Assembly: GCA_039545335.1 (NCBI GenBank)
Contig: BCIN01000001.1
Span: 3,943,347-4,007,346, forward strand
Source: Kondoa subrosea
Taxonomy: Eukaryota
Reading direction: 5' to 3'
Length of the DNA stretch: 64,000 bases
Below the pieces are notes generated by a model. That model made no database searches, was not told where the DNA came from, and saw only the letters and a list, made by a program, of their open reading frames with translations. The stretch's first letter is position 1. Every line of letters begins with the position of its first letter. Below, in pieces: positions 3,839 through 39,651 of this stretch. A program made the translations under genes and the position numbers.

Positions 3839-5221
3839 ATGTCGACGGACTTCTCGGCTGAAGCCTTCTTCAGCTCCCAATCTGCACCAGACGGCTTAGA
3901 AGAGACCTTGGCTAGTTTAGAGACTTTCATTGCGTTTCATGCACAGCAAGGTCGTAAAGTGGTGCTTGTTACTGTTAGTCAATGTCTCAAGCTTCCTGCT
4001 AGAGTGCTCGAGCCAATGTCTGCTGCTTATAATAGAGTGGAGGAACGACTGTACCGCTGGAACGCAATGTGTAGGCTTTCCCTTCTAAGGGAGTTTCCGC
4101 AAATGCTCAGACTGCTTTTATGACTGAAGTGTGCGGTTTCTCGATAATTTCAGCGCCGGTATATTCATCACCAATGGTTCAAGAGTAGACATAGCTCAAT
4201 CTCTGTGTAGGTACTCGCGGAGCTTCTTCAGCTGAACACTTTCTTCGCACCGGCCAGTATGCAGTGATTTTCATGCATCGCCAATACAGTCTTCAACCTT
4301 TCAGTCGGCATTATTCCCACTCCACACATCCTTTTCTCGACCTTATAGATATAGAAGAGCCGCAACAGCTTCATGCAAGTACTTCTTCTACGCAAAATGG
4401 CTATCTCTTTCCTCTGCTTTCTGGCGTCTCCTCACCTTCTCGTCCATCAACACCTCAAGCAGGTAGCGAATTCACCTTCTCTTCTCCCCCCAAACAATCC
4501 TTTATAACACTCCGAGAACCAAACCTTACCCCTATGTTATCGTTATTGAGGTCTTACAAATTGGTCAAAGCGAAGAATCTATTACATACAGTCACTTTCA
4601 CAACAATACAAGAATACCTCTTCATGCTCAGAGGGGTTAGTCTGTTGATGGCTAAACATCTAGGACGGAATGGATTGTATTACATGGCTGCAGCAGTATC
4701 GGATTTCTTTATACCTCAACAGAGAATGGTGAGCGTTATCAACATGAGTTTGCCAGTTATGTATTTTGACCTGGTGCATGCGCTAGGAGGAGCATAAAAT
4801 CCAGAGCGGCAAAGGATCTTTAATCATAGAAATGGATCAAGTTCCAAAAATTTTGAAACCGTTAGTGCAAGATTGGAGTCAAGAAGCTTTTGTTGTTTCT
4901 TTCAAGGTGAATGAAAACCCTGATAATGAACAAAGCATGATCATTAGCTAAAACAGTATTTACCAGCTTGAAACGGACGATAATTTGCTTATACCGAAAG
5001 CTCGAGGTGCATTAGAAAGATATGGACATCAGCTAGTCATTGGAAATACGTTAAAGAAGCGCAAGCAAGAAGTCGTCTTCGTTGAAACCGCTGGAGAAGG
5101 GCAATATAAGGAAGAATGGGTCAAGCTGTCGAGCACTCAATTGCAAGATGGATCAGAAATGGAAGAACTCATCATTGAGAGGCTTGTATCGAAACATGAA
5201 GCATGGATATCTAGAGCTTGA
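3839..5221 (+). CDS. CAB2: Phosphopantothenate--cysteine ligase (CoA biosynthesis)
   Basis: Spliced motifs VVLVTSGGTTVPLE..VRFLDNFSAGTRG, IFMHRQYSLQPFSRHYSH, YYMAAAVSDFFIP, EHKIQSG, VSFKLETD, YGHQLVIGN. Confidence 0.93.
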
Positions 5222-5490: not shown

Positions 5491-6902
5491 TTAACCCATT
5501 CTAGCGAATGAAAGCATGATAAGAGCTCCAGCCTATGGCGAAAACGAGCGTCATACCTCTGACTTAGATCTGAAGGAGGTCGAATGGTTTGCGAGAAGGT
5601 CATGAGCCTGTGCAAAACAAGGACATGAGAAAGCTGGGGAAAAAAATTCAGCTAATCATGATTATATAGCGCACCTCTTTAAACTCTGGATGTACTTTCG
5701 AGAGACTTCGTCATTGAGCACATGAGCTACCTTGTTGCTGTGGATATTTTCTCTTGCACTAGATTCATAAGTCAGCGACGGCGACGAGAGCTTTAGAAAA
5801 GACAAAGGCTTGCCTGCGCTCGTGAATACCAACCATAGTAACTCCGATAGGCCAAGGAGCGTTTCCGATAGAGAGTTTCAAGTACGCATCGTTTGCTTTA
5901 AGGTATTCTCTAATTTGCATATTGTAAACGATTTCCGCTATTGATGCCAAAACGTCTGGTTCGAGTTCTCTTTTCCTTAGTGATTTAAAGAGAGGTTTGA
6001 GGTATTCGCCGGATTGAACTTGAGTTGCTGCCGCTAGTTTACCCTGAGTTGAGCGACGAACATGTTCTGGTCTGTCGAGCATGAATTGTTCCCATTCTTT
6101 CAGGACTTTCTACAGGGTTGTCGTACAGGCTCAGCATATGTGGAATGTCTGGGAGGGAAGGAAAGAAACATACTTTGAGAGCAAAGTAAATTTGGGGATA
6201 GAGTTTGTGAGGATTCGTTTTGATGAGATCCAAATCCACAATAGTATCACCATCTTCTTTAACTTTCACATCCTTCGTTGCATTATCTTCCACACCAGAG
6301 CTTTCCGCTGACCCGTCACCTCCGTTACCCAAAGCAGCTTCAGCTTTCAATCTTCTGACCACATCACTATCTACTTTCCCTCTTCGGGCCAATTCATCCA
6401 ACACCGCGTTTCCATCATCCATTTCTTTCAGGGCCTTCATAAAATCATTCCTTTGACCTGCAGAAGAAGCATCCCTCGTTCTACCTTGCAACAACTCCAA
6501 AGCTCTTAATCTCAACCTTCGATCTTTATCGGATTCAGCAAACAAACGAATAGGTTGATTTTTAGCTCGAAGTCTTTTAACTGCTTCTTCGTTTGATACT
6601 TGAAACTTCTCTGCTGTATTGCTAGAGTCCGAAGTAGAGAGTAGTTTCTGTACAGCTTCATTTGTAGCTTCAGAAACGGTAGGAACTGGTGATCCAGTTC
6701 TGGCCGTCGTTGGTGGAATAGCAGAAGAAACAGGAGAAGCAGAACGAGAAGCAGCAGCAGCTCTTGAATCCAGCTTTGCCTTTTCCAAATCCACCCGTTT
6801 CACATATTTCGTTGGCTGTTGTTGGTCTGAATCTTCCGATGCTGCTACAGGTGTTGCGGTCTCTTTACGTTTACGCTCGATTTCTGCTTTGAGTCGATTC
6901 AT
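5491..6902 (-). CDS. PRP18: Pre-mRNA splicing factor Prp18
   Basis: PRP4-like motif RLRAKNQPIRLFAESDKDRRLRL; Prp18 domain [51 protein letters not shown]; introns near 3' end. Confidence 0.95.
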
Positions 6903-6972
6903 GTTCGTTCCAAGCAAGTAAGTTGGCCGCGAGGGGTTGACCTGCACCGACCGAGAATATTCAATACAAAAG

Positions 6973-7926
6973 ATGTCTGTAAGTTGTGGCTATCTGTTCT
7001 GCTGTTCACGTATCAAGCAAGCAACGAGAGGAGTCAAGCGAGAGATGCCCAGGGCTGTTGCCCGTTTTCAAAAGCAATAATCGAACTTTGGCCTGCTACT
7101 TGGGAGTCTTAGCTGCATTGTGCCGCTCCTCTGGCCTGCACCTGTACATCCTTCTGCGGCAAATCGAGCACCAAATCAGTCCTACCACAGAAATCTCGCT
7201 TATTTCCCGATCATCCCATTTCAAGCGAATACAGATGAACAGGAGCTGACTTGTATCTTTGTGTGATAGGACTCGGAATCTGATGTTCAACCTAAGAACT
7301 ACGTTCTGCAAACCGCAGGCTTTGATGCCCGATTCGTGAGTTTCCGGGATCCAGCTATGAATGATCCTGTTCTGAGCCTGACTTGGGACTTACAGCCTAA
7401 CACAAACGTTAGTATCTTCTGCTCGTCCTGTCGACTTCGACTCACGAAGCTTCATGGTACTAACAGCAAACTAAACATTGCGTGCGTTTGACGGGTTTAA
7501 AGATTGAGGTTGTTCTCATTCTTTGATCTCCCATATGTACAGTGGCAAAACGTACGCTACTAATCCTCGTATGTCAACATTCAGCTAATCCGTCCAACAG
7601 TATGTAGATTATTACCGATGCATCAACGCAAAGGGCGAGGACTTCAAGCCATGCAAGCAGGTGCGCGACATTCTCTTTCAGCTCAATCTCGAGCTGACGG
7701 AGTCGTCGAATCACAGTTCTTCAGAACTTTCCACTCACTTTGCCCTAATGAATGGATCGGTTCGTTTCTCTCAGCTTATTCCACTGAAGGGATGTACGCT
7801 AAAGGAGGAGCAAACAGCTCGGTTCGATGAACAAAGAGAAGGCGGAAACTTCCCTACTGTAAGCTATATCTTGTCACTTCGCTTGCCAAGCTGATTCTGG
7901 TAACAATGCTGCAGGTTCTGGAATAA
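6973..7926 (+). CDS. COX12: Cytochrome c oxidase subunit 6B, 9 coding exons
   Basis: Spliced product MSDSESDVQPKNYVLQTAGFDARFPNTNQTKHCWQNYVDYYRCINAKGEDFKPCKQFFRTFHSLCPNEWIARFDEQREGGNFPTVLE with twin Cx9C/Cx10C. Confidence 0.93.
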
Positions 7927-36090: not shown

Positions 36091-37338
36091 ATGTCACAGA
36101 ACCTACTGGATGCATCTCTGCCTCACACGGTAGAGCTCTCCTTCTTTGGTGCTTCTACTATCAAGTCAAAACAATCACCTCGCAAGCAAGCTCCAGTCAA
36201 GAGCTCATCGCCCTTGCGTCCAAGAGTTCTGAAACAGCAAGTAGCAGTCGATCAGGATCAGGATAAGTCAAGCCAATATGGCACTATCAAGCTGGAGAAT
36301 CTACAGACAAGTGACTGTTCACTGATTGCAAACGAAGGCTGCTCATTTTTGGCGGATACAACTACTCTGCTCTCTGCTAGCTTGTTTCAGGGAAAAGGTA
36401 GAAGAGTGGTGAGCGTAAAGGAGGATGATTTGATTGAGGAGCTGGATGAGAATACACCAGCTCGAGGGAATCAGAAAGTGTATGAAGGAAAGCCTGCGAA
36501 GCTGTTCAAAGAGTTCGTTCGATGAATCCATTGCTACTTAGAGACTAATTCGGTCTATAGACGTCCTGCACCTTCGGCTATCTCTCGCTCCGGAAGTACA
36601 GCTCGATTACCTCTATCCGCTTATTCTCCTTCGCGCTCTTCGCCCGCTCGCTCTTCTCCAATTCGATCATCTCTTTCTCCTCGTCCGTCAGTGGTTGCCA
36701 AAGTGCCGCTCACAGATTCAGATCAACGCAAAGAACGCTTGCAAAACCTCTTTTCTCAAATGCGATCTCAACCTGCAACTACTTCTCGTCGCACTGTAGC
36801 ACCTACACCTGTCCGTCAGACATCTAATCCAGCTGAAACACGGATTCGAGCATTGTTGGCATCCAAATCTCCTTCGCAGTTGCCAGCACGAGCAAGTAAC
36901 AAACCTCAAACAAGCGCTCAACCTCGATCGATGTTTATGGCTCCTCGAAGTAATACGCATACTGGCTCGTTGGCTGATTTGGCAACTCCTCGAATACCTC
37001 GTTCGGGATTGGCTACTCCATCGTCTCGCTCAATAGTCACACCTCGTGTTCTGCCTTCTTCGCGTTCAATGGCCTTACCTTCTTCTCAATCTATGGCATC
37101 TATTCCTCGTCCATCTATCTCATCTTCAAGATCTATGGCTACTTTAACAGCTCGAGTGCCAATATCGAACTCTCAACCCGCTCAAACACCAGTTGCCAAA
37201 ATGTCAAGCTCGAAATCGATGGCTAATTTGACTCCTCGAGTTCACCAAAAAGATGTCTTTTCTGTGACGAAAGAGAAGAGAATCAGTAGATTGTCGAATG
37301 AGGCTAATGTGGATGTGCCAGTGAGGAGAGTGAGATGA
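36091..37338 (+). CDS. Hypothetical Ser/Pro/Arg-rich, probably disordered protein
   Basis: Consecutive open frames joined by short introns; repeated S-S-R/K/Q-S-M-A motif in last exon; many TP/SP sites. Confidence 0.6.
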
Positions 37339-37615
37339 TTAGTAGTAAATAGTGTAATCCTTTAAGTCATGCTATTCATTTCAGTTCATGCCATTTTGTT
37401 TCCAATCTTGAATGAAAGAACATTCTGCTCCAAGTGTTGCTATGCTACTTCAAGTCCTCGGATGGTACCTTGTACCGGTTGACTACATACCATCTTAACA
37501 ACCGAGAAAATTTCGACAGCTAATTGTAACACAGTATATATTTGTCAATAGACGTTGGTTTCTTCAACATGCTTTACTTCCGGAGGAAGGCTACACGTCG
37601 TAGCAAGTGGAAATC

Positions 37616-37746
37616 GCCTTCATGGCTTAGTGGTAGAGGTTAGTCAACAATGTGTCTGGGCTGGCTTCACAACTAATGCTCAAGTTCTCATCAGCGTCGC
37701 TCTCGTAGCAAAGCGAAGATCACCTGTTCGAACCAGGTTTGAGGCA
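37616..37746 (+). tRNA. tRNA-Thr(CGU) interrupted by a 56-nt GT-AG intron in the D-stem (24/25) and a 3-nt insertion at 37/38
   Basis: A-box TGGCTTAGTGG, B-box GTTCGAACC; acceptor GCCTTCA/TTGAGGC+A73; D-stem GCTT/GAG-C restored by removing 37639-37694; anticodon stem TCGCT/AGCGA with CT-CGT-A; T-stem ACCTG/CAGGT; G1-C72 and C2-G71 Thr identity pairs. Confidence 0.85.
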
Positions 37747-37748
37747 CC

Positions 37749-37759
37749 TTCTTTTTTTT
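37749..37759 (+). terminator. RNA polymerase III terminator (T-run) after the tRNA-Thr gene
   Basis: TTCTTTTTTTT immediately downstream of the discriminator base. Confidence 0.8.
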
Positions 37760-38372
37760 GCTCCAGGCAAGGGACGCATCCCTGCAACTTTGAAAGCCTG
37801 TTTGAACGAGCGAGCGTGTGACTTTCCTTAGAAGCACTCCAGAAAGCGCAACTTCGCCTCGAAGGGTAGATCGCATTGATAACAAGTTTCCGATCCTGTG
37901 TAGTGCTTGGTAAGTAGAAAATGCAAGCAGAACGGTAGAACAAAAGAAACGTGATAGACTGCTCCAGCGTACCCAAGGGAGACTAGACACAGCTTTAAGA
38001 TCTCGAGTATTACGTAAGCGCGTCTTGCTTCGAAATGACGCGATGAGAAGCAGAAGAAATAGGAACATAGAAAGGAAAGGAAAGCACGAGAAGAGAAGAT
38101 CTCGTAAGGCACTGAATATCGAATACCAGAACTCGAAGCTGGTCCGCAAGAATTAGACATGATGAGGAACTGAGTTCTGCCTCCTAGTCCGTGCTGATTT
38201 AGACTGGCGATCACAGGCATGCTAAGTTCCTCAGACGAGAGGTCGAACCACGAGACAAACGCAATGATCCGAGTGCAGATGCTTCGCTGAAATTGCTCAA
38301 GAGGAAGGTCTTTCGCAAACCGTCTTCTTCTTCCACACATCCAATCCTTGCTCTCCATAACCTTTCACAGCC

Positions 38373-39651
38373 ATGTCAGGACGCACCAAAGGAGTGGGTG
38401 CGATCTCTGCAAGCCAGAACAGAACCAATGATGCATTGTTTTGATCGATTGATCAGCTGTCTTATGACCAGAAGCGCGAAAAGCGTGTGTTTTCCGTTCT
38501 CTAGGCTATACTACAACTCACCCATCGTATCTGCAGTGCTCGAGAGCATGCAGGAAACTCGTCAGTCCGCTGCACTCGAGTTTTAATGCTCTGCTGACCA
38601 ATGACATCCAGGCGAGTTCTACGTGCGTGCTACGGTCCTTCCCTTATCCTACACTGATTGGAAAGCATCCAGAACTTTAAAGACGTAAAGCATTAGTTTA
38701 TCGCTTAAACCTGACTAACTAAAGACGTAGCTTGAGAAACTTGGCCCAAAGAAAGGCATCATCGCCCAGAGCGTCAAGGAAATCTTGCTGTCACTGGTCG
38801 ACGACAACCTTGTGATAAGTTTTCAGGTGTCTGTTCTCAAAGATCAAACTGATCCGTCGAGCACTCGTCAGAAAAGATTGGCTCTGGTCAATACTATTGG
38901 AGCTTCCCGTACGTATTGTCTACATGTCCATTCCTTCTCCAATATCTCTTCGCAGTCAATTCACTCAAACCATCAAAACGCAGCACGAAGCTAAAGCCAA
39001 AGAAGTCGAAAAGCTTCAAGCTCAATTTGATGCTCTCGAAGAAAATGTTGAAGCTCAGACCAAAGACAAAGTTGACTCTGTGCGTCTTCATCACGCGCTT
39101 GTGTTGCGACTCATTGTGCTTCAGGAGGAACGACGACTCTTGCTTGAGCGATACGAAGAAGCTTTAAGTAAACGTGATGCTATTCGAACAGAGCTATCTT
39201 CTCACAGTACTGGTGATCCTGTCGCATTTGCAAAGAGAAGTGAGTTGCACTGTAGTAAGTATAGGTACTAATCCTGCTTCCTAAGCTCAAGACTTGTTAG
39301 CTATGCGTAAAGGTGAGTGTCCCTTTCCTCTCAATCTGACAGCTTGAGAGGTTGCGTCTTCCAGCCGCTGTCTATTGGACCGATTGTATTACCGATCTCA
39401 TGTCTCACGCTCAAAGACAATATCAAGCTGATACCGCTCAATTGCTTTATCTCGCTCAACTCAAGGATGATTTCGAAGATATTGAGCAAACTTTCTTATC
39501 CCTTGAATCCAAGCCTGCTGTATCAGTACCTATCATCGTCGTGACCAAGGAAGAGGAGAAGAAAGTCGTGCATGCTCGTTCTCAAACTCAGGAATCTACC
39601 ACTTCTTCAGCTGAGGATTCCGCTCGCGTACAATCGGAGGTGGAGGCGTAA
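38373..39651 (+). CDS. MND1: Meiotic nuclear division protein Mnd1, many micro-exons
   Basis: Spliced EFY-TLK-xLEKLGPKKGIIAQSVKEILLSLVDDNL..SEKIGS..YYWSFPS, coiled coil, GDPV, AVYWTDCI. Confidence 0.85.

What the first reader, a model, noticed from the sequence alone, without database searches (positions are those of the whole stretch)
37616..37746. tRNA-Thr(CGU) gene split by a spliceosomal (mRNA-type) intron in the D-stem
Seen: removing exactly 37639-37694 (GTTAGTCAAC...ACTAAT...CTCATCAG, 56 nt) joins G24 to C25 and restores the D-stem G10-C25/C11-G24/U12-A23/U13-G22 of an otherwise well-formed tRNA with A-box, B-box and T-run terminator. The insert has a 5' splice site AG|GTTAGT, a CTAAT branch point at 37673-37677 and a terminal CAG. 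Its length matches neighbouring mRNA introns, and CAB2 intron 1 starts with the same GTTAGTCAA (3974-3982). Established: eukaryotic tRNA introns normally sit at 37/38 and are cut by the SEN endonuclease; mRNA-type introns in Pol III transcripts are known for U6 snRNA of fission yeast and some basidiomycete yeasts. Inference: this pre-tRNA needs the spliceosome to mature, a route I do not know to be described for tRNA. Standard tRNA scanners would probably miss or discard such genes.
Basis: partly seen in the sequence, partly recalled or inferred. Interest (0 to 1): 0.92.

Follow-up and report, generated by a model that had tools for sequence, protein, structure and literature searches.

The report
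tRNA gene split by mRNA-type intron
A transfer-RNA gene in this basidiomycete-like fungus is interrupted by what looks like an ordinary messenger-RNA intron, and four other species carry the same arrangement in working cysteine tRNA genes, so some tRNAs may need the mRNA splicing machinery.

Summary
The sequence is as described. Removing exactly 37639-37694 (56 nt: GTTAGT, CTAAT, CAG) restores a cloverleaf with A-box, B-box and a T8 run. Of 1806 GTNNGT..AG deletions tried across the window, only this one gave a tRNA call.

"Otherwise well-formed" is overstated. The anticodon loop has 10 nt (CTCGTAGCAA), the acceptor stem has a C6:U67 mismatch, and the Thr(CGU) label is uncertain.

New evidence: a degenerate pattern for the exon 1/intron junction, scanned over metagenome contigs, gave 31 loci. 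Four are tRNA-Cys(GCA) genes with a 49-55 nt insert at the same D-stem site. Each insert has a CTRAC 10-12 nt before a terminal TAG, and that TAG holds the first AG after it. Insert interiors are unrelated. The four tRNAs pair at 21 of 21 positions, and 10 of 21 pairs show two-sided compensatory changes. The same pattern in prokaryote genomes gave 0 of 20. No complete bulge-helix-bulge motif was found.

A conserved class of tRNA genes with spliceosomal-type introns therefore seems real. Seven literature searches found no description of it. There is no RNA evidence. The window's own gene may be a working double-intron gene or a recently disabled copy.

The parts
37616..37638 (+). tRNA exon 1: acceptor 5' strand, U8, G9, D-stem 5' strand, D-loop and D-stem 3' strand up to G24
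   Evidence: cloverleaf drawn by ARAGORN after removal of the insert
37623..37633 (+). A-box-like stretch (tRNA positions 8-19), lying wholly in exon 1
   Evidence: read; the A-box consensus is recalled, not tested
37639..37694 (+). 56-nt spliceosomal-type intron between tRNA positions 24 and 25
   Evidence: Its length and signals lie inside the window's own intron set of 12 ORF-joining introns, 49-68 nt, median 52.
37639..37644 (+). 5' splice site GTTAGT, after exon ...GAG
   Evidence: GTTAGT heads 3 of the 12 strict ORF-joining introns of the window.
37673..37677 (+). branch-point-like CTAAT; its A (37676) lies 18 nt from the intron's 3' end
   Evidence: Window introns use CTGAT, CTAAT or CTGAC, mostly 11-17 nt from the 3' end.
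37692..37694 (+). 3' splice site CAG. An earlier AAG ends at 37684, 8 nt after the branch A.
37695..37746 (+). tRNA exon 2: C25, G26, anticodon arm, variable loop, T-arm, acceptor 3' strand and discriminator A
37702..37711 (+). 10-nt anticodon loop CTCGTAGCAA. It reads as CU-CGU-A plus 3 extra nt at or next to the canonical 37/38 intron site, or as U-AGC-AA with 3 extra nt on the 5' side.
   Evidence: two different ARAGORN readings; sequence confirmed
37725..37735 (+). B-box-like stretch in the T-arm
   Evidence: 2 mismatches to the typed consensus; T-arm drawn
37752..37759 (+). T8 run 5 nt behind the discriminator, a Pol III terminator-like site

Best explanation
The locus is a Pol III-type tRNA gene. 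It has a Thr-like body, and its anticodon loop contains CGU. A 56-nt intron carrying all the signals of this genome's spliceosomal introns interrupts its D-stem between positions 24 and 25.

Proposed mechanism:
- Pol III transcribes from the A- and B-boxes, which both lie in exons, to the T8 run.
- The spliceosome recognises GTTAGT, the CTAAT branch site and CAG. It removes the intron as a lariat and joins G24 to C25. Only then can the D-stem and the L-shape form.
- End processing follows.

Shown: the anatomy, the fit to the window's introns, the lack of a complete bulge-helix-bulge motif, and the same architecture in four diverged tRNA-Cys(GCA) genes that are clearly under selection as tRNAs.

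Inferred: transcription by Pol III, removal by the spliceosome, and function.

This member also has 3 extra nt in the anticodon loop and a C6:U67 mismatch. Either a second, tiny excision at or near 37/38 is needed, or the copy was disabled recently.
For: Window gene:
- Removing 37639-37694 is the only one of 1806 GTNNGT..AG deletions in the window that yields a tRNA call.
- Only 3 of 127,888 56-mers look intron-like by the same rule.
- The insert's length and signals fit the window's introns. The strict set has 12 introns of 49-68 nt (median 52) with 5' sites GTGAGT, GTTAGT, GTAAGT and GTCAGT. Branch motifs are CTGAT, CTAAT and CTGAC.
- All stems except one pair are intact (20 of 21), and a T8 run follows.

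The same architecture elsewhere:
- 4 of 31 metagenome matches to a degenerate exon 1/5' splice-site pattern are tRNA-Cys(GCA) genes with 53-, 55-, 49- and 52-nt inserts at the same site.
- After removal, each pairs at 21 of 21 positions and has discriminator U. Each is followed by T5-T10 runs.
- 10 of 21 pairs show two-sided compensatory changes among the four. Mature identity is only 52-65 of 72.
- All four inserts have CTRAC with its A 10-12 nt from a terminal TAG, and that TAG holds the first AG after the branch motif. These two features were not part of the search pattern.
- The insert interiors are unrelated.
- Two of the four also carry an ordinary 37/38 intron, so double-intron tRNA genes exist.

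Controls and alternatives:
- The same pattern in prokaryote genomes gave 0 of 20 loci with a tRNA in the same deletion test.
- No complete bulge-helix-bulge motif was found. The window gene has 2 of 4 central pairs in both registers. The Cys genes never have both flanking helices.
- Spliceosomal splicing of a Pol III transcript has a precedent in U6 snRNA (PMC5855946, passages).
Against: - There is no RNA evidence of any kind.
- The anticodon loop has 10 nt and the acceptor stem has a C:U mismatch. Together with the insert that makes three anomalies in one gene.
- The standard view is that eukaryotic tRNA genes with D- or T-arm insertions are pseudogenes (PMC4090602, passage).
- An AAG 8 nt after the branch A could compete with the CAG. 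The branch-to-3' distance of 18 nt is just above the 11-17 nt usual in the window.
- The supporting genes are Cys genes from unplaced environmental contigs. They are not orthologues of this gene or known relatives of this organism.
- The 5' GTNNGT and the insertion site of those four were fixed by my search pattern, so they are not independent observations.
- A 4-bp helix in bulge-helix-bulge register can be drawn in 3 of the 4 Cys genes, in one register each. A shuffle of the window's own insert put the chance at 3.7% per register, so an endonuclease route is not fully excluded for them.
Confidence: 0.62

Rival explanations
1. The locus is a dead tRNA gene. A duplicated or formerly functional tRNA-Thr gene picked up a 56-nt insertion (for example by stray reverse splicing or an introner-like element), a 3-nt insertion and a point change. 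It is not needed, and any splicing has no consequence.
For: The gene carries three anomalies: the insert, the 10-nt loop and the C6:U67 mismatch. The textbook default is that D- or T-arm insertions in eukaryotic tRNA genes mark pseudogenes (PMC4090602, passage). Standard scanners find nothing here.
Against: Only 1 of 21 stem pairs is broken. By my own reading the conserved D-loop and T-loop bases are intact, which is little substitution decay for a gene with two indels. Perfect splice signals would arise in about 2 of 100,000 arbitrary 56-mers. The same architecture is kept in four working-looking Cys genes. No copy of either exon or of the insert lies elsewhere in the 64 kb.
Confidence: 0.22
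2. The tRNA-like element belongs to a Pol II transcript. It would be the 3' UTR of the S/P-rich ORF that ends at 37338 on the same strand, or a non-coding RNA. It is spliced as an ordinary Pol II intron, and the cloverleaf serves as an RNase P/Z processing signal (mascRNA-like) rather than as a decoding tRNA.
For: The element starts 278 nt behind the stop codon of a same-strand ORF. Spliceosomal splicing is normal for Pol II transcripts. A deviant anticodon loop beside an intact acceptor, D- and T-arm is what a processing-only tRNA-like element would show; this comparison is recalled, not tested.
Against: A T8 run sits 5 nt behind the discriminator, as in the four Cys genes. The A- and B-box stretches are intact. 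The upstream ORF has no detectable homologue and no Pfam family, so it is not shown to be a gene. The Cys genes are plain decoding tRNAs.
Confidence: 0.08
3. The insert is removed by the tRNA splicing endonuclease and ligase at a bulge-helix-bulge-like fold, as in the non-canonical introns of red-algal and nucleomorph tRNA genes. The GT/AG ends would then be incidental.
For: Non-canonical D-arm introns cut by protein enzymes exist in nucleomorphs and Cyanidioschyzon (PMC4090602, passages). A 4-bp helix in the correct register can be drawn in 3 of the 4 Cys genes.
Against: The window gene has only 2 of 4 central pairs in both registers and 1 of 3 pairs in each flanking helix. No gene has the central helix plus both flanks. 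Branch motif, spacing and first-AG rule are kept in 4 of 4 Cys genes, which an endonuclease does not need. The heterotetrameric endonuclease of fungi and animals is described as limited to 37/38 (PMC10485636, passage).
Confidence: 0.05

Closest known systems
mRNA-type introns in U6 snRNA genes of fission yeast and other fungi (Tani and Ohshima 1989, 1991; Canzler et al. 2016), as summarised in PMC5855946 (passages read)
   Same: A Pol III gene for a stable RNA is interrupted by a short intron with canonical 5' site, branch site and 3' site. The intron interiors are not conserved between species.
   Different: The host here is a tRNA, not a snRNA. U6 sits in the spliceosome's catalytic centre, which is the usual explanation for how it gains introns by reverse splicing. 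A tRNA has no such proximity. For tRNA there is also a competing dedicated splicing system, and two of the Cys genes would need both systems.
Spliceosomal introns in U1, U2 and U5 snRNA genes of Rhodotorula hasegawae and in rDNA of ascomycetes (Takahashi et al. 1993, 1996; Bhattacharya et al. 2000), as listed in PMC5855946 (passage)
   Same: Spliceosomal introns sit in conserved parts of non-coding RNA genes of fungi. The best named protein matches of this window are Microbotryomycetes (Rhodotorula and its relatives) at 40-47% identity.
   Different: tRNA is not in that list. Whether this organism is close to R. hasegawae is not known.
Non-canonical tRNA introns of cryptophyte and chlorarachniophyte nucleomorphs and of Cyanidioschyzon merolae (PMC4090602, passages; PMC3728597, abstract in the listing)
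   Same: Eukaryotic nuclear-type tRNA genes carry introns outside 37/38, including in the D-arm. Several introns per gene occur. Introns as short as 3 nt have excision confirmed by RT-PCR, which is a precedent for the 3 extra nt here.
   Different: Those introns are 3-24 nt (nucleomorph) or bulge-helix-bulge-dependent and are cut by an endonuclease. The present inserts are 49-56 nt, carry GT-branch-AG signals and lack a complete bulge-helix-bulge motif.
Canonical 37/38 tRNA introns removed by the SEN/TSEN endonuclease and tRNA ligase
   Same: An intervening sequence must be removed from a pre-tRNA. Two of the four Cys genes also have such an intron.
   Different: The position is 24/25 instead of 37/38, and the signals lie in the intron rather than in the mature domain. 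The enzyme is described as limited to 37/38 (PMC10485636, passage).
   Same: It makes the same claim on other DNA: a nuclear tRNA gene with a spliceosomal-looking intron.
   Different: It concerns a different kingdom and a different tRNA. It is an unchecked AI note that I did not test.

Membership tests
Spliceosomal (U2-type GT-AG) intron | 5' splice site matching the genome's own consensus | tested here: met
   GTTAGT after ...GAG. GTTAGT heads 3 of the 12 strict ORF-joining introns of the window.
Spliceosomal (U2-type GT-AG) intron | Branch-site motif at the usual distance from the 3' end | tested here: met
   CTAAT with its A 18 nt from the end. Window introns use CTGAT, CTAAT or CTGAC, mostly at 11-17 nt, so this lies at the upper edge.
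Spliceosomal (U2-type GT-AG) intron | YAG 3' splice site that is the first usable AG after the branch | tested here: inconclusive
   The intron ends in CAG, but an AAG lies 8 nt after the branch A. In the four Cys genes the junction AG is the first AG (4 of 4).
Spliceosomal (U2-type GT-AG) intron | Length within the genome's intron distribution | tested here: met
   56 nt, against 49-68 nt (median 52) in 12 window introns.
Spliceosomal (U2-type GT-AG) intron | Signals kept while the interior diverges between species | tested here: inconclusive
   Met in four analogous tRNA-Cys genes. No orthologue of the window's own gene was found: the exact T-arm scan gave 0 hits.
Spliceosomal (U2-type GT-AG) intron | Lariat formation and dependence on the spliceosome | not testable with these tools
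   No RNA run is listed for the organism.
Nuclear tRNA gene (Pol III type 2) | Cloverleaf with intact stems and conserved D- and T-loop bases | tested here: met
   After removal of the insert, 20 of 21 pairs form and ARAGORN draws a cloverleaf.
Nuclear tRNA gene (Pol III type 2) | 7-nt anticodon loop with an unambiguous anticodon | tested here: not met
   The loop CTCGTAGCAA has 10 nt. ARAGORN gives ?(gtag), or Ala(agc) with a 3-nt intron.
Nuclear tRNA gene (Pol III type 2) | Oligo-T terminator just downstream | tested here: met
   T8 at 37752-37759.
Nuclear tRNA gene (Pol III type 2) | Detected by standard models on genomic DNA | tested here: not met
   ARAGORN finds 0 genes in the window. 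Rfam finds 0 at gathering score, and 0 at E up to 10 on 37500-37850. Of the four Cys loci, ARAGORN finds 0 of 4 and the Rfam tRNA model 1 of 4.
tRNA-Thr(CGU) | Anticodon CGU in a normal loop, and Thr identity elements | tested here: inconclusive
   CGU can be read only if 3 loop nt are set aside. G1:C72, C2:G71, discriminator A and the absence of G3:U70 fit Thr better than Ala. Those identity rules are recalled; no isotype model was available.
Endonuclease-type (bulge-helix-bulge) tRNA intron | Two 3-nt bulges holding the cut sites, 4-bp central helix, flanking helices | tested here: not met
   The window gene scores 2 of 4 central pairs, with flanks at 1 of 3 and 1 of 3, in both registers.
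Endonuclease-type canonical eukaryotic tRNA intron | Position 37/38 | tested here: not met
   The 56-nt insert lies at 24/25. Only the 3 extra loop nt lie at or next to 37/38.
tRNA pseudogene or tRNA-derived repeat | Several copies, or decay of conserved bases and stems | tested here: inconclusive
   No other copy lies in the 64 kb and only 1 of 21 pairs is broken. The 3-nt loop insertion could still be disabling. The whole genome is not held.

The most novel reading that the evidence does not exclude
Spliceosome-dependent tRNA maturation is a real, conserved trait in several eukaryotic (probably fungal) lineages. Pol III pre-tRNAs for Cys(GCA), and in this basidiomycete-like fungus a Thr-like tRNA, carry an mRNA-type intron at D-stem position 24/25. 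It must be removed as a lariat before the tRNA can fold. Some of these pre-tRNAs need both the spliceosome and the tRNA endonuclease. Standard annotation misses these genes, so the affected genomes would appear to lack an essential tRNA.
Probability: 0.6. Interest if true: 0.92.

Novelty: new variant of a known kind. Interest (0 to 1): 0.85.

Why it matters
Reviews treat tRNA splicing and mRNA splicing as separate systems: protein enzymes cut tRNA introns at 37/38, and the spliceosome handles everything else. The reviews I read list U6, U1, U2 and U5 snRNAs and rRNA, but not tRNA, as non-coding RNAs with spliceosomal introns (PMC5855946; PMC10275265; PMC10485636; PMC4090602).

If these genes are spliced as their signals predict:
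- The spliceosome acts on Pol III pre-tRNAs.
- An essential tRNA (Cys) depends on the spliceosome in some species.
- Some pre-tRNAs pass through both splicing systems.

There are also practical consequences. D-arm 'insertions' now dismissed as pseudogenes would need another look. tRNA finders miss these genes: ARAGORN found 0 of 5 and the Rfam tRNA model 1 of 5. The finding also gives a clean case for asking how spliceosomal introns enter RNAs that are not near the spliceosome's active site.

Tried and rejected
- No RNA holder is listed for window 36400-38600. Only two DNA runs of the probable source sample came back.
- Laying those two contig sets on 37586-37776 at 80% likeness placed one contig per run, with no joints and no second copy. 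I use this only to confirm the sequence, not as evidence on paralogues.
- No whole genome is held.
- The records behind the metagenome loci are not held. The 822-nt loci contain no ORF that I could place taxonomically. The four Cys contigs therefore remain unplaced.
- The metagenome scan with the exact 22-nt variable-loop/T-arm stretch gave 0 hits. The viral-contig scan with the junction pattern gave 0 hits.
- Six of eight look-ups in this scan's earlier findings were blank or unrelated.
- The fold of the unspliced gene is not unusual, with z = -0.34.
- The B-box motif is not enriched in the window: 30 matches against 40.5 expected.
- An unconstrained GT..AG ORF-joining intron finder was too noisy, with 1237 candidates. 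A pattern-only intron count was only about 1.7 times the shuffles. Both were replaced by stricter sets.
- Avoidance of T-runs inside the insert has no power as a test. The insert's longest T-run is 2, but only 1 of 12 mRNA introns has T4 or more.
- My first bulge-helix-bulge test used the mirror geometry. I discard it in favour.
- The ORF upstream (36526-37335) has no homologue and no Pfam family.
- Two scripts stopped on coding errors and were rerun (searches then 61; 63 then 64). One literature search was rejected for an over-long term and resent (searches then 21).
- Rejected reading, Ala(AGC): the acceptor stem has C3:G70, not G3:U70. The identity rule is recalled.

Full report
**The observation**

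Exon 1 is 37616-37638, a 56-nt insert is 37639-37694 and exon 2 is 37695-37746. A T8 run follows at 37752-37759. The insert begins with GTTAGT after ...GAG, holds CTAAT at 37673-37677 and ends in CAG.

Standard finders see nothing on the genomic sequence:
- ARAGORN finds 0 genes in 64 kb.
- Rfam finds 0 matches at gathering score.
- Rfam finds 0 matches at E up to 10 on 37500-37850.

When a script removes exactly the insert, ARAGORN draws a cloverleaf.

- The stem TCGCT/AGCGA encloses a 10-nt loop, CTCGTAGCAA.
- ARAGORN therefore calls tRNA-?(gtag), or, with introns allowed, Ala(agc) with a 3-nt intron.
- The acceptor stem has C6:U67 and U5:G68. That gives 20 of 21 pairs.

Reading CU-CGU-A and setting aside 3 nt at or next to position 37/38 gives Thr(CGU). 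The acceptor stem (G1:C72, C2:G71, C3:G70, discriminator A) fits Thr better than Ala by identity rules that I recall but could not test.

Two contig sets made from the probable source sample's reads carry the identical sequence. The odd loop is therefore not an assembly slip.

**Is it more than chance?**

I deleted every GTNNGT..AG segment of 35-90 nt on both strands of the window, 1806 in all, and ran ARAGORN across each junction. One deletion gave a tRNA call, and it was 37639-37694. Only 3 of 127,888 56-nt segments of the window carry GTNAGT, a CTRAY 8-22 nt from the end and a terminal YAG. No copy of either exon or of the insert lies elsewhere in the window.

**The organism and its introns**

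Pfam hits mark an intron-rich fungus: Prp18, DUF3292, Bmt2, CMAS, Sec1 and others. The best named relatives of its Bmt2 ORF are Microbotryomycetes (Rhodosporidiobolus, Rhodotorula, Sporobolomyces) at only 40-47% identity. The organism is therefore basidiomycete-like, with no close relative in that database. No genome is held.

A strict set of ORF-joining introns (GTNAGT, CTRAY, YAG) has 12 members of 49-68 nt, median 52. Their 5' sites are GTGAGT (5), GTTAGT (3), GTAAGT (3) and GTCAGT (1). A looser set shows CTGAT, CTAAT and CTGAC, mostly 11-17 nt from the 3' end.

The insert fits, at the upper edge for branch distance: 56 nt, GTTAGT, CTAAT, branch A 18 nt from the end. One blemish is an AAG 8 nt after the branch A.

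GTTAGTCAA stands at 3974-3982. A 62-nt GT..AG stretch there separates frames reading ...VVLVT and SGGTTVPLE.... I recall this as the phosphopantothenoylcysteine synthetase motif; I ran no family search on it.

**Related sequences**

A metagenome scan with the exact 22-nt variable-loop/T-arm stretch found nothing. That allowed a second scan, with a degenerate pattern for a tRNA D-arm ending in ...GTAGAG followed by GTNNGT. It returned 31 loci.

In the same deletion test:
- 4 of 31 (L001, L005, L009, L030) are tRNA-Cys(GCA) genes with inserts of 53, 55, 49 and 52 nt at exactly the same place.
- 1 of 31 (L018) is an ordinary uninterrupted tRNA.
- 26 of 31 are not tRNAs.

After removal, each of the four is a clean 72-nt tRNA-Cys with discriminator U, followed by T5-T10 runs. 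L001 and L005 also have an ordinary 37/38 intron, of 30 and 17 nt.

The four mature sequences share only 52-65 of 72 positions. Each pairs at 21 of 21 positions, and 10 of the 21 pairs show changes on both sides among the four. These genes come from different organisms and are under selection as tRNAs while carrying the insert.

The insert interiors are unrelated. All four have CTRAC with its A 10-12 nt from a terminal TAG, and that TAG holds the first AG after the motif. My pattern fixed the insertion site and the GTNNGT, so those two features are not independent. The branch motif, its spacing, the terminal TAG, the first-AG rule and the 49-55 nt length are independent of the pattern.

As a control, the same pattern in prokaryote genomes gave 20 loci, 0 of which yielded a tRNA in the same test. 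Viral contigs gave 0 matches.

On genomic DNA, ARAGORN finds 0 of the 4 Cys genes. The Rfam tRNA model finds 1 of 4: L009 at 46.3 bits, with the whole model matched over 121 nt.

**The endonuclease alternative**

I scored the bulge-helix-bulge geometry with the cut after the second base of each 3-nt bulge, allowing the one-base register ambiguity.

- The window gene has 2 of 4 central pairs in both registers, and 1 of 3 pairs in each flanking helix.
- Three of the four Cys genes can form a 4-bp central helix in one register. A shuffle of the window's insert gave 3.7% per register by chance.
- None of the Cys genes has both flanking helices: their flank scores in the registers with a 4-bp helix are 0-2 of 3.

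That partial complementarity between the D-arm and the insert's 3' end is unexplained.

The canonical introns of L001 and L005 also score poorly on the central helix (1 and 2 of 4). That argues the contigs are eukaryotic rather than archaeal. A review describes the heterotetrameric endonuclease as limited to 37/38 (PMC10485636, passage). An earlier test of mine used the mirror geometry and is discarded.

**How it most likely works**

Pol III would transcribe the gene from exon-borne A- and B-boxes to the T-run. The spliceosome would remove the insert as a lariat and join G24 to C25, and only then could the D-stem form. U6 snRNA shows that a Pol III transcript can be spliced this way (PMC5855946, passage). 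All of this is inference; no RNA data exist here. No RNA run is listed for the organism.

For the window's own gene, the 3 extra loop nt leave two options:
- A second, tiny excision at or near 37/38. Three-nt introns with RT-PCR-confirmed excision are reported from a nucleomorph (PMC4090602, passage), and two of the Cys genes are double-intron genes.
- A recently disabled copy. Reviews treat D- or T-arm insertions in eukaryotic tRNA genes as marks of pseudogenes (same passage).

I put the spliceosomal-type intron reading at about 0.6. Within it I leave present-day function of this copy roughly even.

**What is known**

Seven full-text searches returned no paper describing a spliceosomal intron in a tRNA gene. 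I read passages of these papers:
- PMC5855946
- PMC10275265
- PMC10485636
- PMC4090602
- PMC8450103
- PMC11146597
- PMC3879985

For PMC12530127 I read the abstract and outline only.

The U6 review lists U6, U2, U5 and U1 snRNAs and rRNA genes as non-coding RNAs with spliceosomal introns, and does not list tRNA. Subscription-only papers are outside the library, so an older description cannot be excluded.

This scan noted one similar case before on other DNA: an alanine tRNA gene of an Ostreococcus-like alga (e1-4091646). I did not test it.

**Verdict**

The anatomy is real and far beyond chance. The description of this gene as clean, and the firm Thr(CGU) label, are not supported.

I rate it a new variant of a known kind: spliceosomal introns in non-coding RNA genes, with tRNA as a new host. 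Interest is 0.85.

Noticed in passing
L001:394-571 (+) and L005:394-558 (+): Two environmental tRNA-Cys(GCA) genes carry both a 53- or 55-nt GT..AG insert at D-stem 24/25 and an ordinary 37/38 intron (30 and 17 nt). Their precursors would need two different splicing systems.
   Followed up: partly
L001, L005 and L009: the D-arm GGTAG and the last 4-7 nt of each insert: In 3 of the 4 Cys genes the pyrimidine-rich 3' end of the insert can pair over 4 bp with the D-loop/D-stem bases just upstream of the 5' junction. A shuffle of the window's insert gave 3.7% per register by chance. It is neither a complete bulge-helix-bulge motif nor explained.
   Followed up: partly
window 37598-37606: The 9-mer TCGTAGCAA of the odd anticodon loop (37703-37711) recurs in the same sense in the 5' leader, 10 nt upstream of the tRNA start. 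The preceding CGTCG also resembles the start of exon 2. Rough chance is a few percent (my estimate). No role is known.
   Followed up: no
window 3974-4035 (+): A 62-nt intron starts with the same GTTAGTCAA. Its branch region has no CTRAY.
   Followed up: partly
window 5768-6989 (-): ORF pieces with Prp18 and PRP4-like domains, that is, a splicing-factor gene, lie about 30 kb from the intron-bearing tRNA gene. This is probably coincidence.
   Followed up: no
window 36526-37335 (+): A 270-codon open frame rich in Ser, Pro and Arg ends 278 nt upstream of the tRNA on the same strand. It has no Pfam family and no homologue in the protein database.
   Followed up: partly
L018:395-464 (+): An uninterrupted tRNA that ARAGORN calls Asp with the unusual anticodon ATC. 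It matched the search pattern by chance.
   Followed up: no
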